Source of the DNA: a virus | Taxonomy: Duplodnaviria; Heunggongvirae; Uroviricota; Caudoviricetes | IMG/VR virus record: IMGVR_UViG_3300043219_000435 | DNA length: 64,000 nt | Reading direction: 5' to 3' (one strand) | Shown: positions 16,005 to 59,263 of the stretch, piece by piece | How positions within the stretch are numbered: position 1 is the first letter of the stretch | Layout of the letters: the number at the start of each line of letters is the position of its first letter | Position numbers and translations under genes: made by a program | Notes under the pieces: model-generated | What the model was told of the DNA's origin: nothing | Databases searched by the model: none | The model's input: the letters and a program-made list of their open reading frames with translations, nothing else

Positions 16005-16637
16005 ATGGATTATGGAAATATAGTAATATTGACGGGTGCAGGAATATCTGCAGAATCTGGAATTCCAACATTCCGTGGTGACGATGGATTGTGGGAAGGT
16101 GAGCCGATTGAAGAAATTGGTACTTCTGAAGGATATAGAAAAGATCCTGAAAGAGTTATTTCTTTTTTAAATGAATTAATAGATAAGTTTGCAGCAAAAC
16201 CAAATGCAGCTCATTACGCTTTAGCTGAAGCGGAAGCTAAAGCAGTATCAAAAGGTTATAAATTTACCTTGATAACTCAGAACATTGATGATTTACATGA
16301 GCAAGCAGGTAGTAAGAATATCTTACATATTCATGGTCAGTTGAACAAAACGGTAATTGATGATAATGGTGAACCAAGACCTGATGTTGTTTTGTTTGGT
16401 GAAAATCCATATCATGTTAAAGAGATTCAGAAGATGATGAAGTTCTGCAGATTGTTTGTATCTATTGGAACATCTGGTGAAGTATTACCGGCAGCATCAT
16501 TTGTTGATTTAGCATTTCGTGGTAGGACTGTAGAACTAAATTTAGAATCTACATGTATCAGTAAACGATTTCAAGAATATTCTTATGGCCCTGCAACTAA
16601 AGTAGTTCCTGAATTTTTCAGCAATATCAATAAATGA
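16005..16637 (+). CDS. Sir2-family NAD-dependent deacylase/ADP-ribosyltransferase (short form without a Zn ribbon)
   Basis: GAGISAESGIPTFRG Rossmann motif; QNIDDLH; HIHG catalytic His. Confidence 0.7.
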   Translation: MDYGNIVILTGAGISAESGIPTFRGDDGLWEGEPIEEIGTSEGYRKDPERVISFLNELIDKFAAKPNAAHYALAEAEAKAVSKGYKFTLITQNIDDLHEQAGSKNILHIHGQLNKTVIDDNGEPRPDVVLFGENPYHVKEIQKMMKFCRLFVSIGTSGEVLPAASFVDLAFRGRTVELNLESTCISKRFQEYSYGPATKVVPEFFSNINK

Positions 16638-17024: not shown

Positions 17025-17393
17025 ATGACTAAGTTAATAATCGTGCTAAGGAAAGACCTTAATATGCGTAAGGGAAAAATGATCAGCCAAGGTGCTCATG
17101 CCGTTTTAAAAATTTTTACTGATAGAATTACAGATACAGGTTTTTTAGAGACGACTGTAGAGATGGATGAATGGTTAAAAACTGATTACACTAAAATTGC
17201 TTTAGCTGTTAATTCTGAAGAAGAATTGTTGACATTACAAAAAATAGCAGAAGAACAAAATATACCAAATGCTTTAATTAAAGATCTTGGAAAAACTGAA
17301 TTTAATGGTGTCGAAACGTATACTGCTTTAGCTATTGGTCCTGCACAAATAGATATTATTGATGGTATAAGTGGTCATTTAAAATTATTATAG
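17025..17393 (+). CDS. peptidyl-tRNA hydrolase, PTH2 family
   Basis: LIIVLRKDLNMRKGKMISQGAHAV... matches the PTH2 core (GK.AAQ..HA). Confidence 0.7.
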   Translation: MTKLIIVLRKDLNMRKGKMISQGAHAVLKIFTDRITDTGFLETTVEMDEWLKTDYTKIALAVNSEEELLTLQKIAEEQNIPNALIKDLGKTEFNGVETYTALAIGPAQIDIIDGISGHLKLL

Positions 17394-17702: not shown

Positions 17703-17867
17703 ATGGAAGTACTTATTGGGCCAGTAGCATTTGGAATCAAATATGGCATATGTCCTATATGTGGTTATGATAAAATAGAGTTAACTGATATTGAATGTTA
17801 TAAATGTGATCAGCCTGTACAACCAGTAGAACGGATACTTACAATAGAATTAAAGGATAAGAAATGA
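17703..17867 (+). CDS. small zinc-ribbon protein
   Basis: CPICGY...CYKCDQ; ATGA overlap with tsf. Confidence 0.35.
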   Translation: MEVLIGPVAFGIKYGICPICGYDKIELTDIECYKCDQPVQPVERILTIELKDKK

Positions 17868-18739
17868 ATATAACAGCATCACAAGTAAAAGAATTAAGAG
17901 AACTGACAGGCATTGGAATGATGCATTGTAAGAAAGCTTTGGTTGAATCTGAAGGTAATATTGAGAAAGCTATTGAGAATCTTCGTAAACAAGGTGAAGA
18001 TCTTTCAAATAAGAGAGCCGGAAAAGATGCCAATGAAGGTTGTGTATTTATAGGTTCTTCTCTTGATAAGACAGCAATTGTTGAGATTAATTGTGAGACT
18101 GATTTTGTAGCAAAGTGTGCAATCTTCCAGGATTTCGGTAAAGCTATTGTTGATTTGTTACTTGAAGGTGATTTCAATGATGTAAATGAATTACTTGGTG
18201 TAGGTATTGATGAGGAAGAGAATATCGAAACACTTGGAGATGCTATTAAACGAATGTCTGGAATGCTCGGTGAAAAGATTGAGATTAAACATTTTGAAAC
18301 TGAAGTAATTGGTGAATTTAATATTGTTGGTACATATTCTCATATGGGTGGTAAGATCGGTGTTATTATTAATTTGACATACAGTGGTTATCATGCAGAT
18401 AAAACGGTTTTAGAGGGTATTGCAAAGAAATTATGTATGCAGGTAGCAGCCACTAAACCAATTGCTGTTCATTCCCATAACGTATCTGAAACGGTCTTAA
18501 ACAAGGAACGTGAGATATACAAAGAACTTGCATTAAAAGCCGGTACTAAAGAAGAATATATTGATCGTCAAATTGAAGGAAAGCTCAAGAAATATCTTAA
18601 AGAAGTTTGTTTGTCTGAACAGAATTATATAAAAGACAATAAGACTTCAGTTGCTAAACTTTTAACAAAAACTGAAGTGGCTATGGGAATTGTTGATTTA
18701 GAGATTGATTCATTTGTTCGTTTTGAGCTTGGAAACTAA
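17864..18739 (+). CDS. tsf: translation elongation factor Ts
   Basis: N-terminal ITASQVKELRELTGIGMMHCKKALVESEGNIEKAIENLRKQG (EF-Ts UBA-like domain); typical length for the family. Confidence 0.85.
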   Translation: MNITASQVKELRELTGIGMMHCKKALVESEGNIEKAIENLRKQGEDLSNKRAGKDANEGCVFIGSSLDKTAIVEINCETDFVAKCAIFQDFGKAIVDLLLEGDFNDVNELLGVGIDEEENIETLGDAIKRMSGMLGEKIEIKHFETEVIGEFNIVGTYSHMGGKIGVIINLTYSGYHADKTVLEGIAKKLCMQVAATKPIAVHSHNVSETVLNKEREIYKELALKAGTKEEYIDRQIEGKLKKYLKEVCLSEQNYIKDNKTSVAKLLTKTEVAMGIVDLEIDSFVRFELGN

Positions 18740-19886: not shown

Positions 19887-19912
19887 GGAGCAATAATTTG
19901 CTCCTTTTTTTA
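19887..19912 (+). terminator. rho-independent terminator
   Basis: GGAGCAATAATTTGCTCC hairpin followed by TTTTTTT. Confidence 0.6.
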
Positions 19913-20476
19913 TACCAATTCCTGGCATTCAGGGCACTTTTTCTCATCAGTTCTTATATATTTTTTATCTACAAAATCAACTAACCATACATCATTTCCT
20001 GTTTTATAAAAGTTAATTCCATCTTCAAACATTGCTTTAGCATCAATCAATGTAACCGCAGCTTTACCTCTTCTTTCTGCAACGTCTACTGCAGTATTAA
20101 TGTTGTCAGATAAATGTACATGATGCCTGGACATCTTTTTAATGCCAGTATTTAATATTGAAGACAATGATTTTATTGGGGTTCCGTGGAATAAAACATC
20201 CGGTGGTTTTATAGCTTCCAACTGAAGTATAACTTTTATCGAATGTCCTTGTTGGGCTTTGATTTTCAATCCATCTTCACTTAATATGAAGCGTTTTTTG
20301 TCATTCTTAGCCACAACTTCTTCAATTATGTCCCTGGTCAAGTCATATTTAGTAGTTTTTTGAATAAGTTCGTCAACATATGCCCAACCATGTTCATCAA
20401 TATTTAAATTTATAGATTCTGGTTTATGTCTTAATATTAAGCTTAAATATTTGGAGATGTGTGTTAATTTTTTCAT
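19910..20476 (-). CDS. kptA: RNA 2'-phosphotransferase Tpt1/KptA
   Basis: ISKYLSLILRHKPE...HGW..VDEL...KKRF.....G..I.A.QGHS...HGT...RHHVHLS aligns with KptA over the full length. Confidence 0.85.
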   Translation of the reverse strand: MKKLTHISKYLSLILRHKPESINLNIDEHGWAYVDELIQKTTKYDLTRDIIEEVVAKNDKKRFILSEDGLKIKAQQGHSIKVILQLEAIKPPDVLFHGTPIKSLSSILNTGIKKMSRHHVHLSDNINTAVDVAERRGKAAVTLIDAKAMFEDGINFYKTGNDVWLVDFVDKKYIRTDEKKCPECQELV

Positions 20477-20904: not shown

Positions 20905-21438
20905 TTAATTTAAATAGTTCTCAACTAAAGTAATTTCATCTTCATAATAAGGAAAAACTGTATCAAAATCTGTAGAAAAAGTTTTTAATTCTTCCAGGTT
21001 AATCCATTTTACTTCAGAAAGCTCTTCTGTTTGAATGATGAATTTATCTAGATCTTTTTCTCTACATTTTACAATAAAAACATCATTTATCTCGTGATCT
21101 ATAAATTTTCCATTATTAGAAATGGATTTCTTTTTTAATGACTTTATAAATTTAACATCTGCAGGAAATAATATAATACCTAATTCTTCGAAGACTTCTT
21201 TAATGACAGTTCTGAATGATCGATCACCGGCAACAACATGGCCACCACAAGAAATGTCCCACATTCCAGGAAAGGAATCTTTATTCTCAGATCGTTTTTG
21301 AATAAGAATTTGTTTATCTTCATTTATTAACCAGACATGAACCGATAAGTGCCATAAGCCTTCTTTATGAGCCTGTTCCCGTGGTGCTGTATTTCCGGTT
21401 TGTGTTCCGTCTTCATTTAATATATCTAAATATTCCAT
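20905..21438 (-). CDS. Nudix hydrolase
   Basis: Nudix box GGHVVAGDRSFRTVIKEVFEELGI. Confidence 0.7.
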   Translation of the reverse strand: MEYLDILNEDGTQTGNTAPREQAHKEGLWHLSVHVWLINEDKQILIQKRSENKDSFPGMWDISCGGHVVAGDRSFRTVIKEVFEELGIILFPADVKFIKSLKKKSISNNGKFIDHEINDVFIVKCREKDLDKFIIQTEELSEVKWINLEELKTFSTDFDTVFPYYEDEITLVENYLN

Positions 21439-23322: not shown

Positions 23323-23680
23323 TAAATATTAATCCTATAAATTTTTTCAAATATCTTATTTGTTCTAGATATGTACATATTTCACGATCAGGCTCTGCTT
23401 CAATATCAGAATATTTATTATTAGCATAATCAAAGGATCTTTTTATTAATTCATCCATGTATCCATATTGAAATCTTTCTTTAAGATAATTTTCTTGATG
23501 AATCCAAAACGCACCTGTACCTTTTGATTCATCTAACCATTCATCAAGACATGCATGTAAAAATTCTCTCCTCTTTTTTGTTAATTTTAAAAGATCACAT
23601 TCGGGAGGACAAATATCACTATGAATTTTCGTTCCATCGTCTTTGAGATATTCTATTTGTGCATGTACATTATTTTTCAT
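23309..23680 (-). CDS. hypothetical protein
   Basis: ORF. Confidence 0.4.
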   Translation of the reverse strand: MKNNVHAQIEYLKDDGTKIHSDICPPECDLLKLTKKRREFLHACLDEWLDESKGTGAFWIHQENYLKERFQYGYMDELIKRSFDYANNKYSDIEAEPDREICTYLEQIRYLKKFIGLIFNAQS

Positions 23681-24153
23681 CTACTATGATTCCAGGCAGT
23701 TCGATAATGAATATTTAATTTTTTTGCAATATCAGGCAAAGACATTTTTTTATATTGCAATTCTTTAACTTTTTTTCTTAAAGTAATGCGTTGAATTTCA
23801 CGCATAGTGATTTTAGTATTATCATGTTCTGGATGGTTTATAAAAAATTGAGTGATTAAATATCTTGAAATCGTTGCTTGTGCAATTCCAAGATCTTCAA
23901 TAATATCAGCAGTAGATTTTCCTTCCATATGCATTTCATAAACACGTTCCATTTTTTCTTTTTTTGATAATTTTAATTTTTTTATTGGTCCAACCATAGT
24001 AATCAATTCTCTTAGAGAATGACTATAAACTTTACTTTTATATCTTATTGATAATCTTCCAAATTTGTCATATGGAACAACTGTATTAACTCGATAAACA
24101 ATTTTTGTGTTTAAATCTATACAGTGATTTGGATACTTTGGTATTATTTTCAT
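23677..24153 (-). CDS. DNA-binding protein with two HTH motifs (regulator or sigma-region-4-like)
   Basis: ADIIEDLGIAQATISRYL and LPDIAKKLNIHYRTAWNH. Confidence 0.45.
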   Translation of the reverse strand: MKIIPKYPNHCIDLNTKIVYRVNTVVPYDKFGRLSIRYKSKVYSHSLRELITMVGPIKKLKLSKKEKMERVYEMHMEGKSTADIIEDLGIAQATISRYLITQFFINHPEHDNTKITMREIQRITLRKKVKELQYKKMSLPDIAKKLNIHYRTAWNHSR

Positions 24154-24419
24154 TTTTTCCCTTTAAAAAATAAATGAGTCGATAGGTTATTATCCTACTT
24201 GCCTTATCCACGTACATTTTAATCCTATTATAACCGAAGCTACCATTCCGATAATGTGGATTATATCAGAGGTAATTACGCTGTTTCACATTATAATACA
24301 GACTCACTTCACAGTGCAACTCATCTATCAATAAAAACTAAAGTAATTTATATCATTTTTAATGTCAATACATAAATGATATGTTATATTATAACAATGA
24401 AAATTTATTAAGGATTAAT
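24154..24419. promoter_or_regulatory. 266-bp divergent intergenic control region
   Basis: Largest non-coding gap apart from the RNA clusters; lies between divergent operons and contains AACTAAAGTA, GTCAATA-N12-TTATATT and an AAGGAT RBS. Confidence 0.4.
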
Positions 24420-25079
24420 ATGAAAGTACTTATAACAGCCGGTAGCACCAAAACAATGATTGACCAAGTAAGATGTATCACCAACGTCTTTAAAGGCCGT
24501 ACAGGGGCTGATATGGCAGAATACTTTGGTGCAAATGGTCATTATGTTGATTTATTAACATCGAATACAGATATCAAATTAATGAACAATGTAATGGTCC
24601 TTCCTCATTACAAAACATATGATGATTTGTTTGAGTCAATGAAAAAATTTATTACTATGAAAAAATATGATGTGATTATTCATAGTGCTGCAGTATCAGA
24701 TTATAAACCTGATGGGATATTTAAACCTGATATGTCGTCTGGTGAATTGGAATTAGAATGTGTTTCTTCAGCAACTAAAGTAAGTTCTGATCATGATGAA
24801 CTTTATATCAAAATGATTCCTACAGAAAAGATAATAGATAAAATTCGTTCTGAATGGGGTTTTGAAGGTACTTTAGTTAAGTTCAAGTTACAAGTTGATA
24901 TGAAAGATAAAGAGTTAATATCGGTAGCCCAGGAATCTCGCAAAGCAAGTAATGCTGATATTATTGTTGCAAACTGTTTAGAATGGGCAAGAGAAAGAGC
25001 ATATATTTGTGATGATAATGGACATTTAAATGTTAAACGTTGTAATCTATCTAAAAAATTATTGGAGAAGATTAGCTAA
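24420..25079 (+). CDS. coaB: phosphopantothenate-cysteine ligase (CoaB domain)
   Basis: MKVLITAGSTKTMIDQVRCITNVFKGRTG...AAVSDY matches the CoaB domain of CoaBC. Confidence 0.75.
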   Translation: MKVLITAGSTKTMIDQVRCITNVFKGRTGADMAEYFGANGHYVDLLTSNTDIKLMNNVMVLPHYKTYDDLFESMKKFITMKKYDVIIHSAAVSDYKPDGIFKPDMSSGELELECVSSATKVSSDHDELYIKMIPTEKIIDKIRSEWGFEGTLVKFKLQVDMKDKELISVAQESRKASNADIIVANCLEWARERAYICDDNGHLNVKRCNLSKKLLEKIS

Positions 25080-25639
25080 TGAATATATTATTAGGAATCA
25101 CCGGATCTATCAGTGCATATAAAGCATGTGATATCATATCTGGATTAAATGCTACCGGCCATGATGTTAAAGTAATAATGACTGAAGATGCTAAAAACTT
25201 TATAACTGAAATGAGTTTATCAATTATTTCCGGTAGAGAAGTTGTTTCAAAATTTTCAACTGAAGTAACTGGTCAGGTTGAACATATTGATCTGGCTGAG
25301 TGGGGAGAAATGTTATTAATTGCTCCTGCTACTGCCAATACAATTGCAAAACTTGCAAATGGAATTTGTGATAATGTATTGACTGCAACCGCTTTAGCTT
25401 TTCGAGGAAAGTTTAAAATACTTGCTCCTGCAATGAATACTCTAATGTATGACCATAAAACAACCAAAGGCAATTTAAAAAAACTTGGGGGTAAATTTTC
25501 TGAAAAAAATGTTTGGCATATTATTGAACCTGATGAAGGATTGTTAGCTTGTGGTGAAACCGGAGTTGGTAAATTACGAAAACCTAGAAGGATCGTTGAA
25601 ATAATAAACAAACTGGTAACTTTAAAAGAGGAAATATAA
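25079..25639 (+). CDS. coaC: phosphopantothenoylcysteine decarboxylase (CoaC flavoprotein)
   Basis: LLGITGSISAYKA..GH.V.V.MTE.A..FI; LIAPATANTIAKLANG; PAMN..M. Confidence 0.8.
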   Translation: MNILLGITGSISAYKACDIISGLNATGHDVKVIMTEDAKNFITEMSLSIISGREVVSKFSTEVTGQVEHIDLAEWGEMLLIAPATANTIAKLANGICDNVLTATALAFRGKFKILAPAMNTLMYDHKTTKGNLKKLGGKFSEKNVWHIIEPDEGLLACGETGVGKLRKPRRIVEIINKLVTLKEEI

Positions 25640-26835
25640 TGAGCAAAGCAGTATTCGCATTCTCTGCAGATCCAATAACATTTGGACATATTGATATAAT
25701 CAAAAGAGCATTAACTATGTTTGATGAAGTTATAATTGCCATTGGTAATAATACTGAGAAAACATATTTGTTTCCAACAGAAAAAAGAATTGAAATGACA
25801 ATTGATGCTTTAGCTACTATTGGACATGTAAATCAATATCCATATACAAATACAGTTAAAACATATGAAGGTTTATTAATTGATTTTGCATATGAACAAA
25901 AAGCAAATGTAATCGTAAGAGGAGTTCGAAATGCTGCCGATTTTGATTATGAAAAAAGAATGGCTTTGTGTGGTGAATCCCAGGATCTTGATATAGAAAC
26001 CGTTTTGTTAATGTCAAATCAAAAATATGAACATGTATCTTCTGGATCTGTAAAATCTCTTTTAAAAAGTGGGGGCTTCATTCATAAGATGGTTCCTCTC
26101 AATGTTAAATATAATCTTGAAAAAGAACTGCTAAAGCAATATATAATTGGTGTAACTGGTGAGATGGGTTCCGGCAAATCATTTGTTACTAAAAAATTAA
26201 TTGAAAAGATCGAATCAAAAGGTTATGAAGTTCATCATCTGGATCTTGATAAGATTGCTCACGAAGTATTGAAAGATTTAAAACAACCTGCTTATGTAAA
26301 TGTAAGAAAAATGCTGATAAGTACTTTTGGATTGGTTCATCAATGCAATGACGATTATATTGACCGTGCAGAAATAGGTAAAATTATTTTTGCTGATAAA
26401 AATGATATGGAAACATTTAATTCTATAATGCTTAAACCAATGCTCACAAGAATCAAGAAAGAACTGTTTGGCAAGAAAGGAATCATTCTTTTCAACAGTG
26501 CATTATTGGCTGAAGCAGATTGGAATTTGATCTGTAATAATTTTGTAATACTTATTAATACAACCAAAGAACTTCAGTTAAAGCGTTTACTAAATCGTGG
26601 CTTGGATGAAGATCAAATTAAAGAACGTCTTGATAATCAATTGAGTTTTGAAGATAAATACAATAAGATTTATTCTGATATAACAAAACATAATCAAGGT
26701 AAAACTTTTGTGTTCGAAAATACTTTAGATGATCTTGAACCAGAATTGGAAAGAGTCACAACTGAAGTAATTAGTTCAATTATTAATACTGAAAATTATG
26801 ATGCCTATTACCAAGAAGTAAATGGTTTACTTTAA
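25639..26835 (+). CDS. coaDE: bifunctional phosphopantetheine adenylyltransferase / dephospho-CoA kinase
   Basis: N-terminal AVFAFSADPITFGHIDII..RGVRNAADFDYE (CoaD); C-terminal IIGVTGEMGSGKSFV... with a P-loop (CoaE). Confidence 0.8.
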   Translation: MSKAVFAFSADPITFGHIDIIKRALTMFDEVIIAIGNNTEKTYLFPTEKRIEMTIDALATIGHVNQYPYTNTVKTYEGLLIDFAYEQKANVIVRGVRNAADFDYEKRMALCGESQDLDIETVLLMSNQKYEHVSSGSVKSLLKSGGFIHKMVPLNVKYNLEKELLKQYIIGVTGEMGSGKSFVTKKLIEKIESKGYEVHHLDLDKIAHEVLKDLKQPAYVNVRKMLISTFGLVHQCNDDYIDRAEIGKIIFADKNDMETFNSIMLKPMLTRIKKELFGKKGIILFNSALLAEADWNLICNNFVILINTTKELQLKRLLNRGLDEDQIKERLDNQLSFEDKYNKIYSDITKHNQGKTFVFENTLDDLEPELERVTTEVISSIINTENYDAYYQEVNGLL

Positions 26836-26841
26836 ATAAAA

Positions 26842-26880
26842 AGAGAGTTGGACATAGTGTACCCAACTCTCTCTTATTCT
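26842..26880. terminator. hairpin terminator between convergent genes
   Basis: AGAGAGTTGG-loop-CCAACTCTCT followed by a T-rich stretch. Confidence 0.5.
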
Positions 26881-26949
26881 TGGAAATGCATCAAACGATG
26901 CTCAAACAAAATAAATTAATTATTTTGTTTGGTCAACAATTATTATTTG

Positions 26950-27909
26950 TTATTTGCTACCTGCAGCTACTTCCGCAACTTTTTTGATAGTTGCTGCGTC
27001 AGCTTGTGCATTAAGAGCACTCTTAGCCATATCAGAAATTTGATTTACTTGATTTTCGATGATTGAATTTGATTTGTCAAGTTGAGCAATAAGATCTGTT
27101 ATTTTTTCCTCTAAAGAATTAATTCTTCCTTCCTGGATCTCAGCTTTAGATTCAGCACCCATTTTTGCCATACTAGAAGCATACTGTGCAGATCTTTTTG
27201 CTTTATCTTCACCGTCAACATATGATTTAGCAACTTTTTCTGCAGTCGAGTTTTCAAGCTCTGTGATCTTATTATTGAGAACTTCAACTTCTGCTTCACG
27301 TTGCTCAAGATCATCTTCACGACCATTGAGTTCCGTTTCACGAGTATCAAGAGATTTGAGTTTTGTACGAAGTGCATCATCAACAGCATCATTTGACATT
27401 GAACGTTTTCTGTCTGTCTCATATGAATAAACTTCAAGTTCACGTCTACGAGAAACTTCAAGATCATTTTTCTTGTCTGATGAATTCTCAATAATTTCAT
27501 TGTAATAAGTGTCAGCACGATCTCTGATGTCTTTTGCTTTTTCGTCAGCATCAGTAACCAGTTTTTCTTTAACTGCAGCTAAAGCAGCAAGATCATTTGC
27601 ACTTACTTCAATACCATGAACATCTTTAAGCTCAGCTTTTTTAGCTTCGATAGCAGTAATGATATCTTCATATTGACTTTTAAGATCAGTAATTTGACCA
27701 ACTAAAGTACTAAGAACACCATCAATAGCACTAATGTCCATTGAGTTTGCACTTGCAATAGAACCTTTGATTTTAGCTTCTGTTGCTTTAGCTGTTGTAG
27801 TGATTGGTCCACCTTGAATAGCTTCCAATTTTGCTTTTTGCTCTTTGTATGCATCCCACAAATCTTTTTTTGTTGAACCCATGAATTTAATTCCGTTATT
27901 ATCTGACAT
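26950..27909 (-). CDS. long coiled-coil protein (function unknown)
   Basis: Heptad-rich E/K/A sequence with no catalytic motifs. Confidence 0.4.
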   Translation of the reverse strand: MSDNNGIKFMGSTKKDLWDAYKEQKAKLEAIQGGPITTTAKATEAKIKGSIASANSMDISAIDGVLSTLVGQITDLKSQYEDIITAIEAKKAELKDVHGIEVSANDLAALAAVKEKLVTDADEKAKDIRDRADTYYNEIIENSSDKKNDLEVSRRRELEVYSYETDRKRSMSNDAVDDALRTKLKSLDTRETELNGREDDLEQREAEVEVLNNKITELENSTAEKVAKSYVDGEDKAKRSAQYASSMAKMGAESKAEIQEGRINSLEEKITDLIAQLDKSNSIIENQVNQISDMAKSALNAQADAATIKKVAEVAAGSK

Positions 27910-31121: not shown

Positions 31122-32867
31122 TTATGCATCAGATTCTGGTACATCTTTTTTTGGAGTAATACATTCTGTTAAACCATTAAGAGAATCAGCATTCATACCA
31201 AGCTCGTTCAATAGATTATTGATCATTGGCGCTTGTGCTTTATACTTAAGAGCAGCTTCTGCCATGCTATCAGCCATATTAGTAGACTGTGGAGCACCTT
31301 CAACTGAAGTTCCTGTAGAAGAGCCTATACCGTTCAAACCTTCATATTGAACGATTTTAATTGATTCGATTGCTTCTATTGGTTTAACACTTTGCTCAAT
31401 GATTTTTGGAAGATTCTCAATAGTTTTCATTTTGATTTTCATTTCGATTATCTCAGGAGACAGAGAATTTTCGGCATCAACCATTTCTTTCTTACCGGCA
31501 GCATCAACAGAGTATTCTTTTTCTTTTGTTTCAGCTTTCATCATATCAGCGTTCTTATTAGCCTCAGCAATGATTTCAATTGAGTCCGCTTTGTCTTTAG
31601 AAGCTTTCTTTTCAGCATCAGCAGCAATAGTAATAGATACCGCATCTTTTTCAGCTTCTTCTTTTGCTTTAATGATTTCGATTTCTTTGTTACGATTAGC
31701 TACTTCAGTTTCTTTAACAGTAGTAACGTTCTCTTCCGCTTTAACAGCTAAAGCTCTTGCATCTTCAGCTTCTGCTTTAGCTTCAGACTCTTCTTTTGAC
31801 TTCTCACTGATAGCAATAGCTTTATCTTGAGAAGCGATCTCAAGGGTTTTGTTCTTATTAATCTCTGCAGATTGAATAGCTTGATTCTTTGTAATCTCTG
31901 CAGATTGAATAGCCTGTTCAGATTTAATGCTTTGCTCTTTGATAGCTTTTTGATTCTGAATAGTTTCTTCTTGAATTGCTTGGTTTGTAGAGAGTTGAGC
32001 TAAATCAATACTTTGTTGAGCTTTGATCTCTGCTTCTTCAGCTTCTTGTCTTTTCTCAGCTCGTTGTTTAGCAGTACTGGTAGATTCCTCTTGAGTTTTG
32101 ATAGAGATTTCTCTTTGCTGTTCAAGACGTGCATATTCATTATCTTTCTTGATAGACAGAGATTCTTTTTCAGCTTCAAGATTTTTCTTTTGAATTGCAA
32201 TTTTAGTTGACTGTTCAATGTCATTTCTTGATTTGTTACGAGATTCAATTTCTTGAGTAAGTTTCAATAAGCCTTCAGCATCAAATGCATTGTTCGGATT
32301 AAAGAATTCTTTATTAGTTTGATCCAATGAAGTAAGTGAAACAGATTCAAGTTCCATACCATTCTTCAATAAATCTTCTGTTACTGCTCGTTGAACTTTT
32401 TGAACAAAATCCGTTCTTTTTTCATGTAAATGTTCCATTGACATTTCAGCAGCTACAGAACGAAGTGCATCAACAAATTTACCCTCAACCAAATCTTTCA
32501 ATTCATTGATGACCAATGTTTTACTACCAAGAGTTTGTGCAGCATCTGCAATCGATTCATTTGTTGGTTTTACACGAACATAAAATTCTGCAGTAACGTC
32601 TACTCTCATTCTATCACTTGTAATTAATGAGTCCTTACATTTTCTATTAACGACTAATCTGATAGTGTTCATGTTTACCATAATGATGTCATGAAGAACA
32701 GGAAGTACTAACGCACCACCATTCATGATAACTTTTTGACCACCTAAACCAGTTCTTACAAAAGATCTTTCTTTAGTTGATCTGGTATATAATTTTGAAA
32801 ATACGATTCCCATTGTAAGTAATGCGACCACTGGTATTGCTATGAATAATATTAAACTGATATCCAT
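31122..32867 (-). CDS. flotillin-like SPFH/band-7 protein
   Basis: N-terminal TM, SPFH core (GGQKVIMNGGALVLP..), long EA-rich coiled coil; YqiK/FloT-like. Confidence 0.75.
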   Translation of the reverse strand: MDISLILFIAIPVVALLTMGIVFSKLYTRSTKERSFVRTGLGGQKVIMNGGALVLPVLHDIIMVNMNTIRLVVNRKCKDSLITSDRMRVDVTAEFYVRVKPTNESIADAAQTLGSKTLVINELKDLVEGKFVDALRSVAAEMSMEHLHEKRTDFVQKVQRAVTEDLLKNGMELESVSLTSLDQTNKEFFNPNNAFDAEGLLKLTQEIESRNKSRNDIEQSTKIAIQKKNLEAEKESLSIKKDNEYARLEQQREISIKTQEESTSTAKQRAEKRQEAEEAEIKAQQSIDLAQLSTNQAIQEETIQNQKAIKEQSIKSEQAIQSAEITKNQAIQSAEINKNKTLEIASQDKAIAISEKSKEESEAKAEAEDARALAVKAEENVTTVKETEVANRNKEIEIIKAKEEAEKDAVSITIAADAEKKASKDKADSIEIIAEANKNADMMKAETKEKEYSVDAAGKKEMVDAENSLSPEIIEMKIKMKTIENLPKIIEQSVKPIEAIESIKIVQYEGLNGIGSSTGTSVEGAPQSTNMADSMAEAALKYKAQAPMINNLLNELGMNADSLNGLTECITPKKDVPESDA

Positions 32868-32876
32868 GATATCTCC

Positions 32877-33542
32877 CTATTGTTTTTTTAATAATTGATT
32901 ATTGTTTTTTATTGCTTTGAATATATGATTGTTTTTTTCTGTTAAAATTACTTCAGTTCCTTGCTTAAACTCAACATTCTCTTCATCAGGCTCAACCATT
33001 ATATGATGAGTAGTGCCATGATGATCTTGAAATTTTGCCGAAGCCGGATAATTCAACTTTGCTGTACCTAAAGTTATAATAGCAACTTCACCGATAAACG
33101 AATCTTCTGATATTGATTGAGATTCATCATCAGGAATAATTTTATTTAACATGTTTGCACATGTTTTTATTATCGGTACAGAAATTACTATAGCCAGGAT
33201 ACTTGCAATGAATGAAGGAAAAAACTGAAGTAATATGGATTTTGATATTATCTGTATTAAATATCCAGACAAACCAAAAGTTGTTAATGCGAGTATTAAC
33301 AAAATTAGTATTGGTACTTTACCAATACAGAACCAAGTTAATATTCTTGAAAAGAAATCCGGTGTATCAAAATTATCTGGCACATCAGTATCAATATCAA
33401 AATCTGGTAATATTGAATCCAAAAGATTAGAAAATCCGACACCAATTAATAAACCAAAACCTTCCATAAATGATATAGTAATCATTATTCCAATTGCTAC
33501 AGTAAATGGAAGATTCTCGTTTGCTAAAATTAAATCAATCAT
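32877..33542 (-). CDS. NfeD-like membrane protein (flotillin partner)
   Basis: Multi-TM N-terminus plus a C-terminal soluble beta-domain; lies immediately upstream of the flotillin, as in yqiJ-yqiK. Confidence 0.5.
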   Translation of the reverse strand: MIDLILANENLPFTVAIGIMITISFMEGFGLLIGVGFSNLLDSILPDFDIDTDVPDNFDTPDFFSRILTWFCIGKVPILILLILALTTFGLSGYLIQIISKSILLQFFPSFIASILAIVISVPIIKTCANMLNKIIPDDESQSISEDSFIGEVAIITLGTAKLNYPASAKFQDHHGTTHHIMVEPDEENVEFKQGTEVILTEKNNHIFKAIKNNNQLLKKQ

Positions 33543-34201
33543 TACAGATTCTGTTTAAATTTTTGTAAACGAACTTCAATTTTATTTTTTCTTCTTATCT
33601 CTTTAAGTTCCTCGATTTCACGATCTGCTTTCATATCAGTACTTGATTTTGTAAGATCTTTGCCAACAATATTTGTAACAACTCTTTCAAATGCTGCTTC
33701 AGCTTTTGAAATATTATCTTCAATATTATGTTCTTTATCTGTTTGTGAATCAACTAATACTTTAGTTTCTTTTAACAGTGTTAACTCATCTTTCATTTCT
33801 CTAATTTTACTTTCAAGAGCAAGGATGAAATTTTCAAGTTCAATTTTCTTGTTATTGTTTTCTTTTAAAGACGATTCGATGATAGGTAATTGAGTTTCAA
33901 TATCAATTTGTTGAGAAATTACAGATTCTGCATGTTCATCTTTACCTTCATCAACAGCAATTTTGATAAGTTCATTATAGTCGTTGATTTTATTTTCAGC
34001 TTCTATTTTTCTCTTTGATCCTAGATAAAGAGCTGCTTCAATTTTACCAAGTTCAGATTTGATCTCACTCATTGCATCCTGAATTTCTTTTATGGATTGC
34101 TCCATCATAACTTCAGGCATAGAACTTTCTACAATGTTTATTAATTTGTGTGTGCTACCACTAATAATTCTGGTAACTTTTGATGATATACTTTCTTTCA
34201 T
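33542..34201 (-). CDS. pspA: PspA/IM30-family protein
   Basis: N-terminus ..MPEVMMEQSIKEIQDAMSEIKSELGKIEAA aligns with the PspA helix 1-2 region; all coiled coil. Confidence 0.55.
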   Translation of the reverse strand: MKESISSKVTRIISGSTHKLINIVESSMPEVMMEQSIKEIQDAMSEIKSELGKIEAALYLGSKRKIEAENKINDYNELIKIAVDEGKDEHAESVISQQIDIETQLPIIESSLKENNNKKIELENFILALESKIREMKDELTLLKETKVLVDSQTDKEHNIEDNISKAEAAFERVVTNIVGKDLTKSSTDMKADREIEELKEIRRKNKIEVRLQKFKQNL

Positions 34202-40492: not shown

Positions 40493-40879
40493 ATGAAACT
40501 TACAAATCAAATGGTTTCAGAGCAGTATAAGAATATTCAATTCTTTCTTATGCCAAGTGATTTTAAAGGTGCTTTAGCTTATTATATAGCTGTTCAAAAC
40601 CCAAATGCTATACTTGAAAATAATGAAGCTTTAATTGCTTATATGGATTTCTTATATTTTGTACACTTTAAAAATCCTAAAGAACCAATAAAATTTACTT
40701 GTGAGAAATTAAGGAATATTGTAAATGAAGATATATTCTGTGCCATACCTGAAGTTCGAGACCTCAATGAAATGAGGCCGGACTTTATCGATTTAGGTGC
40801 TTTAGCCAGGAATGTCTATTATATGATTATTAAACAAGTTATCATTGAAGATAATCTTGCAGATCCTTTAATGTTATAA
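40493..40879 (+). CDS. hypothetical protein
   Basis: ORF coupled to the upstream gene. Confidence 0.4.
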   Translation: MKLTNQMVSEQYKNIQFFLMPSDFKGALAYYIAVQNPNAILENNEALIAYMDFLYFVHFKNPKEPIKFTCEKLRNIVNEDIFCAIPEVRDLNEMRPDFIDLGALARNVYYMIIKQVIIEDNLADPLML

Positions 40880-41181: not shown

Positions 41182-41195
41182 TTTAAATCCTTAAG

Positions 41196-41270
41196 CAGAC
41201 GTGGAAGGAATCGAACCCTCACTAGCGCTGATTTTGGAGATCAGTGTTCTACCGTTTGAACTACACGTCT
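41196..41270 (-). tRNA. tRNA, anticodon CCA (Trp)
   Basis: Minus-sense AGACGTG TA GTTC-AAACGGTA-GAAC A CTGAT-CTCCAAA-ATCAG .. GAGGG-TTCGATT-CCTTC CACGTCT; canonical cloverleaf, no encoded CCA. Confidence 0.7.
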
Positions 41271-41276
41271 ATAATA

Positions 41277-41591
41277 TTAATATTCTATTGTGATTGGGGC
41301 AAAGTCTACGTTCTCTATTTTTCTATCTTTGTCAAGATCTACCTTAGGTCTTTTGTCAAATCTCATAGGAACAATATTTATTTCAATTGGTTGTTGGCCT
41401 TCTATCAAAAATCTCTTGCGTCTTACCTTAAAGTCATTTAGTATATTATTTGTGACACTTTTAATATTACGGTTATCTACAAATGAATTAAATGACACGG
41501 GAACATCGTACCAACATATAAAGCTTTTCATTTCAGAACGATAATATACTTCTCCATCGTCATTTACTTTTACAATTATTCTATATTTCAT
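41277..41591 (-). CDS. MK(Y/T)RI-family small protein
   Basis: MKYRIIVKVNDDGEVYY.. start with RBS AGGAG; the longer track ORF to 41675 would run through the tRNA. Confidence 0.45.
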   Translation of the reverse strand: MKYRIIVKVNDDGEVYYRSEMKSFICWYDVPVSFNSFVDNRNIKSVTNNILNDFKVRRKRFLIEGQQPIEINIVPMRFDKRPKVDLDKDRKIENVDFAPITIEY

Positions 41592-41604
41592 TTTAACTCC
41601 TAAG

Positions 41605-41677
41605 CAGGTGTGACAGGCATCGAACCCGTAACCGTTGGATTTGGAATCCAGTGCTCTGCCAATTGAGCTACACACCT
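41605..41677 (-). tRNA. tRNA, probably anticodon CCA (one anticodon-stem mismatch)
   Basis: Minus-sense AGGTGTG TA GCTC-AATTGGCA-GAGC A CTGGA-TTCCAAA-TCCAA .. ACGGG-TTCGATG-CCTGT CACACCT. Confidence 0.6.
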
Positions 41678-47316: not shown

Positions 47317-49531
<2,215 letters not shown>

Positions 49532-50967: not shown

Positions 50968-51192
50968 TTATTCAACTTCTTCAGCAATGAAACCTATATG
51001 TGGTTCTTTATCTGAAGGAATAATACCAGGACTGAATTGTTCAGCTTCTATGATAAGAAATATACCTTCAACTTTTCCTTCAAACTTCATTTCTTTACCA
51101 ATATAATCTTTAAAGTCAGGGAAGTGTTCACCGCAGCAAGCTCTTCCTCGACCTGTTATATTAAAAGAATCTTGTACGATAAAGGTTTTCAA
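50968..51192 (-). CDS. hypothetical protein
   Basis: ORF. Confidence 0.35.
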   Translation of the reverse strand: MKTFIVQDSFNITGRGRACCGEHFPDFKDYIGKEMKFEGKVEGIFLIIEAEQFSPGIIPSDKEPHIGFIAEEVE

Positions 51193-53406: not shown

Positions 53407-53615
53407 TAATTATTACACCATTTTATTTTCCAAGTTGGATCGAAGTTGATAGGATAGAAAAACCATCCATTTTGTATACCATATCCTTCACCTTTCATAT
53501 TTGGATCTGGAACAGCACATGATGAGTGACAATCACCTGGACAGGTGCGTCTATGTTCACAACTATAGCATTCATTCTGTATGGTTCTTGCATCACCTGC
53601 CATAATATTCCTCAA
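53388..53615 (-). CDS. Cys-rich small protein
   Basis: CYSCEHRRTCPGDCHSSC. Confidence 0.35.
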   Translation of the reverse strand: MRNIMAGDARTIQNECYSCEHRRTCPGDCHSSCAVPDPNMKGEGYGIQNGWFFYPINFDPTWKIKWCNNYKNKEA

Positions 53616-57924: not shown

Positions 57925-57933
57925 TATATCTCC

Positions 57934-58542: not shown

Positions 58543-58593
58543 ATATTTCCTTTAAATTAGGTATGGGGAAAGGCCATCCCCCACACCTAAATA

Positions 58594-59211: not shown

Positions 59212-59263
59212 ATTATTTCCCTTCCTAAATCATTTGAGGCCGAAGCCCCAAACGATAAGTTAA

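What the first reader, a model, noticed from the sequence alone, without database searches (positions are those of the whole stretch)
24154..26880. Phage-encoded coenzyme A biosynthesis from 4'-phosphopantothenate, with unusual gene architecture
Three co-oriented, translationally coupled genes (ATGA overlaps at 25079 and 25639) encode CoaB, CoaC and a CoaD-CoaE fusion. In bacteria coaBC is normally one gene with the C domain first, and coaD and coaE are separate. Here B precedes C as separate genes, and D is fused to E. This covers every step after pantothenate kinase. The module sits behind a 266-bp divergent control region and in front of a hairpin terminator. It is an auxiliary metabolic module that would raise CoA or acyl-carrier capacity during infection.
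Basis: partly seen in the sequence, partly recalled or inferred. Interest (0 to 1): 0.7.

Follow-up and report, generated by a model that had tools for sequence, protein, structure and literature searches.

The report
Phage-borne coenzyme A synthesis operon
A probable giant bacteriophage carries a compact three-gene operon for the last four of the five enzyme steps that turn vitamin B5 into coenzyme A; scattered versions of the same genes occur in other huge phages, a metabolic add-on I found described in none of the papers searched.

Summary
Three co-oriented, overlapping genes (24420-25079, 25079-25639, 25639-26835) encode CoaB, CoaC and a CoaD-CoaE fusion. All checked catalytic residues are present, and CoaD and CoaE score above NCBI equivalog cut-offs.

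Corrections:
- The junctions are 1-nt TAATG overlaps, not ATGA.
- The downstream hairpin is real but a weak terminator.
- No promoter or riboswitch signal exceeds chance in the 266-bp spacer.

The architecture is not peculiar to this element. Split coaB→coaC in this order is native to Patescibacteria and occurs in all nine IMG/VR phage contigs found with CoaB. The fusion forms a family of about 278 clusters, found in DPANN archaea, Patescibacteria, Bacteroidota, Pseudomonas megaplasmids and five huge-phage contigs.

What is unusual is the contiguity. None of 53 other fusion loci has coaB or coaC within 5-8 kb. The 735-kb phage LR756501 and one 312-kb IMG/VR contig encode all four activities, but dispersed.

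The window looks like a huge phage: 2.2 genes/kb, mostly ORFans, DUF3310, DUF551 and a Tad5-like gene. No capsid or terminase gene lies in the sequence available.

Best reading: an auxiliary module converting 4'-phosphopantothenate, or salvaged 4'-phosphopantetheine, to CoA during infection. New variant of a known kind; moderate interest.

The parts
24154..24419 (.). 266-bp AT-rich spacer between the divergent HTH gene (23677-24153, minus strand) and coaB. It presumably holds the promoters, but none is demonstrable.
   Evidence: GC 0.27. Promoter-like hits are not above shuffles. No Rfam match. Fold z = -0.66.
24410..24414 (+). Shine-Dalgarno-like AAGGA, 5 nt before the coaB ATG at 24420.
   Evidence: Read from the sequence. 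It supports the 24420 start, which is also the start used in the Logan gene call.
24420..25079 (+). coaB: monofunctional phosphopantothenate-cysteine ligase (PPCS), 219 aa.
   Evidence: PF04127 at 5e-28. NF005231 scores 127.5 bits and TIGR02114 110 bits, both below their equivalog cut-offs. Best PDB match is 2gk4, at 1e-19 over the full length. N22, D94 and K120 align with E. coli Dfp N210, D279 and K289. Homologues are 50-60% identical, in phage-like contigs and Patescibacteria.
25064..25067 (+). GGAG, 11 nt before the coaC ATG, inside the end of coaB.
   Evidence: Read from the sequence.
25079..25639 (+). coaC: FMN-dependent phosphopantothenoylcysteine decarboxylase (PPCDC), 186 aa. It starts on the last base of the coaB stop codon (TAATG).
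   Evidence: PF02441 at 3.7e-35. TIGR00521 N-terminal half scores 185 bits and TIGR02113 166.9 bits; the RiPP decarboxylase CypD model scores only 18 bits. PDB matches are CoaBC 6tgv and human PPCDC 1qzu, both about 1e-24. H69, the PAMN motif with N120, and the ACG motif with C158 align with E. coli H75, N125 and C158.
25626..25632 (+). Shine-Dalgarno-like AAGAGGA, 6 nt before the coaDE ATG.
   Evidence: Read from the sequence.
25639..26130 (+). PPAT (CoaD) domain of the fusion protein, residues 1-164. The gene starts on the last base of the coaC stop codon (TAATG).
   Evidence: TIGR01510 scores 149 bits against a cut-off of 103.3. 34 PPAT structures match at 1e-18 to 3e-27. TFGH with H17, K41, R97 and S134-S135 are present. 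The AF2 N-domain superposes on bacterial PPAT with target TM 0.81-0.92. The family-wide motif is AFS(G/A)DP instead of PG(S/T)FDP.
26140..26688 (+). DPCK (CoaE) domain of the fusion protein, residues about 168-350.
   Evidence: TIGR00152 scores 82.7 bits against a cut-off of 65.55, and PF01121 gives 4.4e-21. PDB dephospho-CoA kinases 2grj, 2if2 and 4i1u and the DPCK part of mouse CoA synthase 2f6r match. P-loop GVTGEMGSGKS and the invariant LDLD Asp204 are present.
26689..26835 (+). C-terminal tail of the fusion (residues 351-398) and the TAA stop. Its last 14 or so residues are specific to this protein and are modelled with low confidence.
   Evidence: Alignment A1. pLDDT is below 60 over the last two 10-residue blocks.
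26842..26872 (+). Hairpin (AGAGAGUUGG / CCAACUCUCU) between the convergent genes. It is a possible but weak intrinsic terminator.
   Evidence: Free energy -15.6 kcal/mol, z = -2.63. The terminator scan did not call it, and the tail is CUUAUUCUU.

Best explanation
The locus is a three-gene, translationally coupled operon on a large phage-like genome. It encodes the four enzyme activities that convert 4'-phosphopantothenate to coenzyme A.

The proposed pathway.
1. CoaB ligates cysteine to 4'-phosphopantothenate through an acyl-nucleotidyl intermediate.
2. CoaC, an FMN enzyme, decarboxylates the product to 4'-phosphopantetheine.
3. The N-terminal PPAT domain of the fusion adenylylates 4'-phosphopantetheine to dephospho-CoA.
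4. The C-terminal P-loop kinase domain phosphorylates the 3'-OH to give CoA.

Entry points.
- The first pathway step, pantothenate kinase, is not encoded in the window, so the phage depends on the host for 4'-phosphopantothenate.
- Alternatively the module can start at the fusion, from salvaged 4'-phosphopantetheine.

Likely role. It is an auxiliary metabolic module. It keeps or raises the CoA and acyl-CoA pool while host gene expression is shut down, using enzymes that need not obey host feedback control.

History. The module looks assembled from two units that also circulate separately in huge phages: a coaB-coaC pair and a coaD-coaE fusion.

Shown: gene structure, family membership by HMM, conservation of catalytic residues, the fold of the fusion, and recurrence of the two units in viral contigs.

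Inferred: the enzyme activities, phage origin, expression as one transcript, and the benefit to the phage.
For: Family assignments and cut-offs.

Catalytic residues:
- CoaB N22, D94 and K120.
- CoaC H69, N120 and C158.
- CoaD TFGH, K41, R97 and the SS pair.
- CoaE P-loop and Asp204.

Fusion model: pLDDT 86.8 and pTM 0.85, which points to a fixed packing of the two domains. The N-domain superposes on bacterial PPAT with target TM 0.81-0.92.

Operon structure: TAATG junctions with SD-like motifs before each ATG.

Residency: GC and GC3 of the three genes equal the window mean, so they are long-resident and not a recent insertion or an assembly chimera.

Phage-like window:
- 143 ORFs in 64 kb, median 100 aa, against 1.03 genes/kb in a Patescibacteria locus.
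- Of 66 small ORFs, none of the first 33 has a Pfam hit and the other 33 give only nine family matches on a few proteins.
- DUF3310 and DUF551, Phage_VG64 just upstream of the window, a Tad5-like anti-Thoeris protein, PHROG-only families and a Bacillus phage G gp268 homologue.
- tRNA genes.

Recurrence in viruses:
- Nine IMG/VR contigs (38-459 kb) carry coaB with coaC beside it.
- Five IMG/VR contigs (181-467 kb) carry the fusion.
- The closest CoaC and CoaB relatives (55-61% identical) lie in phage-like contigs.
- One 312-kb contig, and the 735-kb phage LR756501, carry all four activities at separate loci.
Against: - No enzyme assay or complementation exists.
- CoaB and CoaC score below the NCBIfam equivalog cut-offs.
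- The Ser-Ser-Gly that follows the catalytic Asn in E. coli CoaB is Phe-Lys-Gly here and in the whole clade.
- The PPAT motif PG(S/T)FDP is AFSADP.
- No capsid, portal or terminase gene lies in the 64-kb window or in the roughly 12 kb of flanks recovered, so viral origin is not proven.
- No CoA-consuming phage enzyme, ACP or phosphopantetheinyl transferase was found nearby that would explain the demand.
- In relatives, coaC is fused to or separated from coaB by an M23 peptidase domain. This is not explained by a plain CoA role.
- A single transcript is not shown.
Confidence: 0.65

Rival explanations
1. The sequence is not a phage. It is part of an ultra-small cell genome (Patescibacteria or DPANN) or of a megaplasmid, and the genes are that organism's ordinary CoA genes.
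For: - The only named close homologues are cellular: CoaB in Patescibacteria and Buchananbacteria, and the fusion in Woesearchaeota, Nanoarchaeota, Woesebacteria and Paceibacterota.
- The fusion also sits on Pseudomonas megaplasmids of 1.06 and 1.17 Mb.
- No virion gene lies in the window or its flanks.
Against: - Gene density is 2.2 per kb with a median ORF of 100 aa. The Patescibacteria locus L020 has 1.03 per kb and most other cellular loci about 0.5-1.7.
- Most small ORFs lack any Pfam family.
- The window holds no ribosomal protein, RNA polymerase or cell-envelope gene.
- Phage-associated families are present: DUF3310, DUF551, Phage_VG64, Tad5 and several PHROGs.
- The closest CoaB and CoaC relatives sit in IMG/VR or phage-like contigs.
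Confidence: 0.1
2. The module complements a host that cannot itself make CoA from phosphopantothenate, for example a Patescibacteria-type host living on salvaged precursors. The phage then supplies a missing pathway rather than boosting an existing one.
For: - The fusion commonly stands alone, with no coaB or coaC within 5-8 kb, including in the DPANN loci. This fits salvage from 4'-phosphopantetheine.
- The closest cellular CoaB homologues are in Patescibacteria, and that phylum has both the split pair and the fusion.
Against: - The host is unknown.
- The window also carries bacterial genes with no special link to Patescibacteria: EF-Ts, flotillin with YqiJ, PspA and TerD.
- The fusion also occurs in Bacteroidota and Clostridiales genomes of similar GC.
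- In the unbootstrapped NJ tree the window's fusion is an isolated long branch.
Confidence: 0.15
3. The module is a counter-defence device. It rebuilds CoA or 4'-phosphopantetheine after a host immune system destroys it, by analogy with phage NAD+ reconstitution pathways.
For: - The same genome region carries a Tad5-like anti-Thoeris gene, SIR2, NUDIX and KptA, all tied to NAD or ADP-ribose.
- Related phage loci carry Macro and NUDIX genes near coaB-coaC.
- A SIR2 homologue lies about 3 kb from the fusion in two other loci.
Against: - No CoA-depleting defence system turned up in the literature search.
- PADLOC gives no meaningful hit for the three proteins.
- The NAD-related genes are 3-8 kb away on the other side of unrelated genes.
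Confidence: 0.07
4. The CoaB-like ligase and the CoaC-like decarboxylase act on a substrate other than phosphopantothenate, for example a peptide or a cell-wall carboxylate. The locus would then not be a CoA pathway.
For: - CoaB and CoaC score below equivalog cut-offs.
- The clade replaces SSG by FKG.
- In a 735-kb phage and in L019 the decarboxylase is fused to, or followed by, an M23 peptidase domain.
- The HFCD flavoprotein family includes peptide-cysteine decarboxylases.
Against: - The CoaC models score 167-185 bits against 18 bits for the RiPP decarboxylase model.
- The PPCDC-specific PAMN and ACGxxGxG motifs are intact.
- In this window the pair is translationally coupled to a PPAT-DPCK fusion that passes equivalog cut-offs.
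- In three phage contigs the pair is preceded by a TANGO2 homologue, a family that publications link to CoA.
Confidence: 0.03

Closest known systems
Split coaB-coaC gene pairs of Patescibacteria (e.g. GCA_042568725.1) and the monofunctional CoaB and CoaC of streptococci and enterococci (TIGR02114, TIGR02113; PDB 2gk4)
   Same: - Separate genes of about 220 aa (CoaB) and 185 aa (CoaC).
- In Patescibacteria the order is B then C, with overlapping stop and start codons.
- CoaB is 53% identical.
- The same catalytic residues are present, and the same NxFKG variant.
   Different: - Those are cellular housekeeping genes with no coaD-coaE fusion beside them.
- The Patescibacteria CoaC is only 36% identical.
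Bacterial-type CoaD-CoaE fusion family, annotated only as 'pantetheine-phosphate adenylyltransferase'. It occurs in DPANN archaea, Patescibacteria, Bacteroidota, Clostridiales, Spirochaetes and Pseudomonas megaplasmids.
   Same: - Same domain order and length (about 377 aa).
- 40-48% identity.
- Same AFS(G/A)DP, P-loop and DxD signatures.
   Different: - In all 53 other fetched loci the fusion has no coaB or coaC within 5-8 kb.
- In about 28 loci it is paired with, and in proteins of about 580 aa fused to, an uncharacterised HD-type domain. The window lacks this domain.
- The window protein has a 7-residue insertion and a longer C-terminal tail.
Eukaryotic CoA synthase (COASY) and archaeal PPAT-DPCK fusions (arCOG04076; PMC6650551)
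   Same: One polypeptide carries PPAT followed by DPCK. The DPCK half is homologous to the COASY kinase domain (PDB 2f6r).
   Different: - The PPAT half here matches bacterial CoaD structures and TIGR01510; no eukaryotic PPAT domain appears among the PDB matches.
- The archaeal DPCK is a non-homologous GTP-dependent family.
- These are therefore convergent fusions.
Huge phage LR756501 (735 kb, Al-Shayeb et al. 2020) and IMG/VR contig 3300032046_000001 (312 kb)
   Same: Phage genomes encoding all four post-PanK activities.
   Different: - The genes sit at two loci far apart, about 385 kb and about 117 kb respectively.
- In LR756501 coaD and coaE are separate genes, the order is coaC then coaB, and CoaC carries an M23 domain.
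- The LR756501 record is unannotated, and the paper's main text does not mention CoA.
Single CoA genes annotated in jumbo phages (PPAT in Brevundimonas phages and in the Microcystis phages MaAM05 and PhiMa05)
   Same: Phage-borne CoA-pathway genes treated as auxiliary metabolic genes.
   Different: They are one step only and canonical unfused CoaD, 32-35% identical to the N-terminal half of the fusion here.
Phage-encoded NAD+ synthesis and reconstitution pathways (from my own knowledge, not tested here)
   Same: Phage-carried short pathways that rebuild an essential nucleotide cofactor from a late precursor.
   Different: A different cofactor and unrelated enzymes. An anti-defence role is established for NAD+ but only conjectural for CoA.

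Membership tests
Phosphopantothenate-cysteine ligase (CoaB / PPCS; Pfam PF04127) | Match to the DFP C-terminal domain model above Pfam's gathering score | tested here: met
   98.6 bits against a gathering score of 22, covering residues 14-201 of the 232-aa ORF.
Phosphopantothenate-cysteine ligase (CoaB / PPCS; Pfam PF04127) | Score above the NCBIfam equivalog cut-offs (NF005231, TIGR02114) | tested here: not met
   127.5 against 265, and 110.1 against 217.2. This is a divergent clade shared with Patescibacteria and phages.
   N22, D94 and K120 are invariant in alignment A2. The SSG that follows the Asn is FKG in the whole clade.
Phosphopantothenate-cysteine ligase (CoaB / PPCS; Pfam PF04127) | CTP- or ATP-dependent ligation of cysteine to 4'-phosphopantothenate | not testable with these tools
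   Needs an enzyme assay.
Phosphopantothenoylcysteine decarboxylase (CoaC / PPCDC; HFCD flavoproteins, PF02441) | Flavoprotein domain, with a better match to CoaC models than to peptide-Cys decarboxylases, UbiX or DpaB | tested here: met
   PF02441 scores 121.4 bits. The TIGR00521 N-terminal half scores 185 and TIGR02113 166.9. By comparison DpaB scores 31.6, UbiX 23 and CypD 18.
Phosphopantothenoylcysteine decarboxylase (CoaC / PPCDC; HFCD flavoproteins, PF02441) | Score above the equivalog cut-off of the monofunctional model TIGR02113 | tested here: not met
   166.9 against 261.4.
Phosphopantothenoylcysteine decarboxylase (CoaC / PPCDC; HFCD flavoproteins, PF02441) | Active-site His75, Asn125 in the PAMN motif, and Cys158 in the ACGxxGxG clamp | tested here: met
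   H69, PAMN with N120 and ACGETGVG with C158 are invariant in A3 and align in the PDB matches.
Bacterial phosphopantetheine adenylyltransferase (CoaD; TIGR01510) | Equivalog score | tested here: met
   149 bits against a cut-off of 103.3, over residues 4-163.
Bacterial phosphopantetheine adenylyltransferase (CoaD; TIGR01510) | (H/T)xGH nucleotidyltransferase motif and the C-terminal SS(x)xxK/R motif | tested here: met
   TFGH with H17, and VSSGSVK at 133-139.
Bacterial phosphopantetheine adenylyltransferase (CoaD; TIGR01510) | Canonical PG(S/T)FDP strand-loop before the HxGH motif | tested here: not met
   The window has AFSADP and the whole fusion family has AFS(G/A)DP. This is a family-level variant whose effect is unknown.
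Bacterial phosphopantetheine adenylyltransferase (CoaD; TIGR01510) | PPAT Rossmann-like fold | tested here: met
   AF2 model with pLDDT 86.8. Foldseek against E. coli and Mycobacterium PPAT gives target TM 0.81-0.92 and rmsd 2.0-2.5 Å.
Dephospho-CoA kinase (CoaE; TIGR00152, PF01121) | Equivalog score, and a better match than to other P-loop kinases | tested here: met
   82.7 bits against 65.55, and PF01121 at 75.8 bits. APS kinase scores 31 and thymidylate kinase 20.
Dephospho-CoA kinase (CoaE; TIGR00152, PF01121) | Walker A GxxGxGKS and the catalytic Asp of the DxD motif | tested here: met
   GVTGEMGSGKS at 171-181, and LDLD with D204 invariant in A1.
Eukaryotic CoA synthase (COASY) | Eukaryote-type PPAT domain fused to DPCK | tested here: not met
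   Only the DPCK half matches 2f6r (query residues 152-339). The N-terminal half matches bacterial CoaD structures. The locus works like COASY but is not a member.
Phage auxiliary metabolic gene | Located on a viral genome with virion hallmark genes | tested here: inconclusive
   No capsid or terminase gene in the window or in about 12 kb of flanks. Density, ORFan content and phage-associated families favour a virus.
Phage auxiliary metabolic gene | Homologues recur in independently classified viral contigs | tested here: met
   Nine IMG/VR contigs carry coaB-coaC, five carry the fusion, and six carry coaD alone. GenBank phages LR756500 and LR756501 also carry pathway genes.

The most novel reading that the evidence does not exclude
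Huge phages carry CoA-rebuilding modules (coaB-coaC, coaDE, and here all of them in one operon) as a takeover or counter-defence pathway. The module would restore the CoA and 4'-phosphopantetheine pool after the host or its immune systems cut it off. This would be a CoA counterpart of the phage NAD+ reconstitution pathways. It would imply that CoA depletion is a hitherto unrecognised battleground between phages and bacteria.
Probability: 0.1. Interest if true: 0.8.

Novelty: new variant of a known kind. Interest (0 to 1): 0.5.

Why it matters
The enzymes are ordinary, well-known families, and phages carrying cofactor genes are a familiar theme.

What is new:
- I found no paper describing a phage that encodes the whole route from 4'-phosphopantothenate to CoA.
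- The route is recurrent. At least 15 IMG/VR huge-phage contigs, and the largest published phage genome, carry parts or all of it, unannotated.
- This window packs it into one operon, so it is the cleanest construct for complementation and biochemical tests.

Wider points:
- It draws attention to a bacterial-type PPAT-DPCK fusion family of about 278 sequence clusters. Databases mostly label it as plain CoaD, and it seems to be the CoA salvage enzyme of many DPANN archaea and Patescibacteria.
- The related loci show two context links worth testing. TANGO2 homologues sit directly upstream of phage coaB. An uncharacterised HD-type domain is adjacent to or fused with the fusion.
- If the role is more than supply, for example host complementation or counter-defence, CoA would become a new axis of phage-host conflict.

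Tried and rejected
- DNA search of the locus against GenBank phages found no match.
- The viral scan with the single fusion protein found nothing. An alignment was needed.
- Riboswitch or structured leader in the 266-bp spacer: no Rfam hit at E<=1 and no unusual folding. Rejected.
- Promoter calls: not above shuffles. No claim made.
- The terminator scan did not call the hairpin. It is kept only as a 'possible weak terminator'.
- Search for pantothenate kinase, ACP or phosphopantetheinyl transferase in the window: Pfam on all ORFs of at least 55 aa not already annotated found none.
- Defence-system membership: PADLOC gave only a weak P-loop hit. Rejected.
- Link between the window's HD_4 protein and the HD-type partner of the fusion: hhalign probability 1.5%. 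Rejected.
- Close relatives of this phage in IMG/VR, searched through its DNA ligase: only 36% identical hits that share no other gene.
- Walking further along the contig was not possible. Look-ups are restricted to window proteins.
- Literature: searches for phage CoA modules, huge phage with CoA biosynthesis, CoA-depleting defence, and CoaD-CoaE fusions in DPANN or Patescibacteria returned nothing relevant.
- The NJ tree of the fusion has no bootstrap support. I use it only to say that the window protein is an isolated long branch and that the phage copies do not cluster.

Full report
**1. What is in the sequence**

The region holds three co-oriented ORFs on the + strand: 24381/24420-25079, 25079-25639 and 25639-26835.
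- An independent gene call on an identical Logan contig (SRR11832402) uses the 24420 ATG for the first gene, giving 219 aa. AAGGA lies 5 nt upstream of that ATG.
- Each upstream gene ends in TAA, and the last A of that stop is the first base of the next ATG. The junctions are therefore 1-nt TAATG overlaps, not 4-nt ATGA overlaps.
- GGAG lies 11 nt before the second ATG and AAGAGGA lies 6 nt before the third. Tight coupling is thus real, even though the overlap type was misread.
- The spacer to the divergent upstream gene (23677-24153, an HTH protein) is 266 bp with GC 0.27.
- In the spacer, promoter-like hexamers are no more frequent than in shuffles, no Rfam family matches, and the fold is unremarkable (z = -0.66).
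- Downstream, a 10-bp stem at 26842-26872 folds at -15.6 kcal/mol with z = -2.6. Its tail is weak, and the terminator scan did not call it.

**2. What the proteins are**

*ORF1 (CoaB).*
- It matches the CoaB domain PF04127 (5e-28).
- Its best named matches are the monofunctional ligase models NF005231 and TIGR02114 and the S. pneumoniae structure 2gk4.
- Aligned with E. coli Dfp, N22, D94 and K120 correspond to N210, D279 and K289.
- The SSG that follows the Asn in E. coli is FKG here and in the whole clade.

*ORF2 (CoaC).*
- It matches PF02441 (3.7e-35).
- It scores 185 bits on the CoaC half of TIGR00521, against 18 bits on a RiPP Cys-decarboxylase model.
- H69, the PAMN motif (N120) and the ACGETGVG motif (C158) are intact.

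*ORF3 (CoaD-CoaE fusion).*
- Residues 4-163 pass the CoaD equivalog cut-off (149 against 103.3 bits).
- Residues 169-348 pass the CoaE equivalog cut-off (82.7 against 65.55 bits).
- TFGH (H17), K41, R97, the SS pair, the Walker A loop GVTGEMGSGKS and the DxD aspartate D204 are all present.
- An AlphaFold model built on 29 homologues is confident (pLDDT 86.8, pTM 0.85). Its N-domain superposes on bacterial PPAT structures with target TM 0.81-0.92.

*Caveats.*
- CoaB and CoaC fall below the NCBIfam equivalog cut-offs.
- The canonical PPAT motif PG(S/T)FDP is AFSADP here. Across the family it is AFS(G/A)DP.

**3. Is it a phage?**

*Against certainty.* No capsid, portal or terminase gene lies in the window or in about 12 kb of extra flank recovered from public contigs.

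*In favour.*
- There are 143 non-overlapping ORFs in 64 kb, 2.2 per kb, with a median of 100 aa. A Patescibacteria locus has 1.03 per kb, and most other cellular loci carrying the fusion have about 0.5-1.7 per kb.
- Of 66 small ORFs, none of the first 33 has a Pfam match and the other 33 give only nine family matches on a few proteins.
- DUF3310 and DUF551 lie 2 kb upstream. A Phage_VG64 protein lies just outside the window start.
- The gene at 40493-40879 passes the Tad5 (anti-Thoeris) gathering score.
- The convergent downstream gene belongs to a PHROG-only family and resembles Bacillus phage G gp268.
- The rest of the window is a typical huge-phage accessory set:
  - RNA repair and NAD-linked genes: RtcB, KptA, PNKP phosphatase, an RlaP-type nucleotidyltransferase, a Ro60-like protein, NAD-dependent ligase, SIR2 and NUDIX.
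  - Translation: EF-Ts, PTH2 and tRNAs.
  - Membrane and stress genes: a flotillin-YqiJ-PspA cluster and TerD.
- GC and GC3 of the three CoA genes equal the window mean, so they are long-resident.

I put phage origin at about 0.85. A megaplasmid or an ultra-small cell genome is the residual alternative.

**4. How unusual is the architecture?**

*The coaB-coaC pair.*
- The closest CoaB homologues (50-60% identical) form a large family of monofunctional proteins of about 220 aa.
- In a Patescibacteria genome and in a 207-kb contig, coaB is followed by an overlapping coaC, exactly as here.
- The closest CoaC homologues (55-61%) lie in phage-like contigs with the same overlapping B-then-C pair, next to RNR with an intein, ClpS/ClpA, PRPP synthetase and QueC.
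- A scan of IMG/VR with a CoaB alignment found nine viral contigs of 38-459 kb. All nine have coaC beside coaB.

*The coaD-coaE fusion.*
- It is a family of about 278 clusters (50% identity) at E<=1e-30 among 1.84 billion representatives.
- It occurs in Woesearchaeota and other DPANN genomes, next to archaeal ribosomal and RNA polymerase genes.
- It also occurs in Patescibacteria, Paceibacterota, Tenacibaculum, Clostridiales, Spirochaetes and Lentisphaeria, and in two Pseudomonas megaplasmids of about 1.1 Mb.
- Five IMG/VR contigs of 181-467 kb carry it as well.

**5. What is distinctive**

- None of the 53 other fetched loci with a full-length fusion has coaB or coaC within the 5-8 kb of flank available.
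- None of the phage-like coaB-coaC loci has the fusion nearby.
- Two phage genomes do encode all four activities, but at separate loci.
  - IMG/VR contig 3300032046_000001 (312 kb) has them about 117 kb apart.
  - The 735-kb phage LR756501 has a CoaC-M23 fusion plus coaB at 217-219 kb, and separate coaD and coaE at 604 kb.
- The LR756501 record has no annotation, and the main text of the paper describing it does not mention CoA.
- Only single coaD genes are noted in jumbo-phage papers. Targeted literature searches found nothing on a phage CoA pathway.
- The window's operon therefore looks like a consolidation of two units that circulate separately in huge phages.
- In an unbootstrapped NJ tree the window's fusion is an isolated long branch, 41-46% identical to most DPANN and Patescibacteria versions and 35-42% to the IMG/VR phage ones. 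The phage copies do not cluster, which suggests several acquisitions.

**6. Mechanism**

- Shown by sequence: four enzyme domains with intact active-site residues, in pathway order B, C, D, E, and translationally coupled.
- Inferred pathway:
  - 4'-phosphopantothenate plus cysteine gives phosphopantothenoylcysteine (CoaB).
  - That gives 4'-phosphopantetheine (CoaC, FMN).
  - That gives dephospho-CoA (PPAT domain).
  - That gives CoA (kinase domain).
- The confident two-domain model (pTM 0.85) fits hand-over of dephospho-CoA within one protein, but this is not shown.
- Pantothenate kinase is absent from the window. The module therefore depends on the host for 4'-phosphopantothenate, or starts from salvaged 4'-phosphopantetheine.
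- The stand-alone fusion in the DPANN loci examined fits a salvage role there.
- The benefit to the phage is conjecture. It could be sustaining CoA and acyl-CoA for lipid, energy or acetylation reactions during a long infection, free of host feedback.
- No CoA-dependent phage enzyme, ACP or phosphopantetheinyl transferase was found nearby.

**7. Rivals**

- Cellular or plasmid origin (0.1).
- Complementation of a host that lacks the pathway, for example Patescibacteria (0.15).
- CoA reconstitution as counter-defence (0.07). The NAD-related and anti-Thoeris genes nearby support it only loosely. No CoA-depleting defence was found in the literature, and PADLOC gave no hit.
- Non-CoA chemistry by the B-C pair (0.03). 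The recurring M23 domain hints at it. The motif pattern and the coupling to PPAT-DPCK argue against it.

**8. Side findings in related loci**

- TANGO2-family genes sit immediately upstream of coaB in three IMG/VR contigs, with a remnant in a fourth. All three start with Met-Cys and carry GANRDE.
- Human TANGO2 is disputed between acyl-CoA binding, vitamin B5-rescued lipid defects and heme trafficking. I found no mention of this synteny in the two TANGO2 papers checked.
- An uncharacterised HD-type protein of about 205 aa lies next to the fusion in about 28 loci, including the viral loci L010 and L012. It is fused to the fusion in proteins of about 580 aa (hhalign probability 99.9%).
- That HD-type protein has no PDB or NCBIfam match, and no Pfam hit is on record for it. 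The window lacks it.

**9. Verdict**

- It is a new variant of a known kind: known enzymes and the known concept of phage auxiliary metabolism.
- The new elements are a pathway not described for phages in the papers searched, a consolidated operon seen nowhere else in the data I could reach, and an under-annotated fusion family.
- Interest is moderate (0.5).

Noticed in passing
L190 7274-7999, L192 7236-7997, L189 6878-7588; fragment at L188 7770-8001 (IMG/VR contigs; not in the window): TANGO2/NRDE-family genes (PF05742, 78-82 bits for L190 and L192; L189 assigned by tblastn to these two) lie immediately upstream of, or overlap, coaB in three phage contigs. All three start with Met-Cys and carry GANRDE. 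This is independent genomic-context support for the disputed link between TANGO2 and CoA metabolism.
   Followed up: partly
L197 1974-3083 (LR756501, 735-kb phage) and L019 1516-2106: A Peptidase_M23 domain is fused to CoaC in the 735-kb phage, and one sits between coaC and coaB in L019. The two M23 domains are 48-49% identical. A plain CoA role does not explain this.
   Followed up: partly
L004 7131-7748, L006 7163-7789, L195 3088-3702, L010 9197-9751, L012 9260-9781 and about 20 further loci; P0112 residues 379-588: An uncharacterised HD-type protein of about 205 aa (motifs RFYHN..H and WYHD) lies directly next to the coaD-coaE fusion in about 28 loci. It is fused to it in proteins of about 580 aa (hhalign 99.9%). 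It has no PDB or NCBIfam match and no Pfam hit on record. It may be a salvage phosphohydrolase. The window lacks it.
   Followed up: partly
window 60637-61612, minus strand: A cluster of tRNA-like hits. Rfam calls full-length tRNA matches of 144 and 156 nt (60887-61030 and 61251-61406), implying insertions of 70-85 nt. ARAGORN in intron mode calls a tRNA with anticodon tta and a 135-nt intron at 61036-61245. tRNA-Ser lies at 61540-61612.
   Followed up: partly
window 41816-42919, 19910-20476, 51189-51650, 53593-54528, 61835-63517, 47540-49531: A full RNA and DNA repair kit: RtcB ligase, KptA/Tpt1 2'-phosphotransferase, PNKP-type phosphatase, an RlaP-type nucleotidyltransferase, a Ro60/TROVE protein and NAD-dependent DNA ligase. 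Two tRNA-Trp genes lie at 41195-41677.
   Followed up: no
window 40493-40879, 16005-16637, 20905-21438: A Tad5-like anti-Thoeris protein (30.9 bits against a cut-off of 27), a SIR2 protein and a NUDIX hydrolase. Together they form an NAD and ADP-ribose theme in the same genome. SIR2 homologues also lie about 3 kb from the fusion in L009 and L119.
   Followed up: no
window 31122-34201 and 56878-60474: Host-like membrane and stress genes: flotillin/SPFH, YqiJ (NfeD-like) and PspA in a row, and further on a Na/Ca exchanger and two TerD proteins.
   Followed up: no
window 17025-17393 and 17864-18739: Translation-related genes on the phage-like genome: an archaeal/eukaryotic-type peptidyl-tRNA hydrolase (PTH2) and a bacterial EF-Ts. 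An EF-Ts homologue (32% identical) also lies near coaB-coaC in L191.
   Followed up: no
window 26903-26931: A perfect 12-bp AT-rich inverted repeat (CAAACAAAATAA / TTATTTTGTTTG, 5-nt loop) just after the stop of the convergent minus-strand gene (26950-27909). It may be that gene's terminator.
   Followed up: no
L043 (Pseudomonas serbica, 1.06-Mb plasmid) and H80 (P. silesiensis, 1.17-Mb plasmid): The coaD-coaE fusion also sits on Pseudomonas megaplasmids, in a region with phage-like gene density (1.9 genes/kb). In the NJ tree it is sister to the copy on a 181-kb IMG/VR contig.
   Followed up: no
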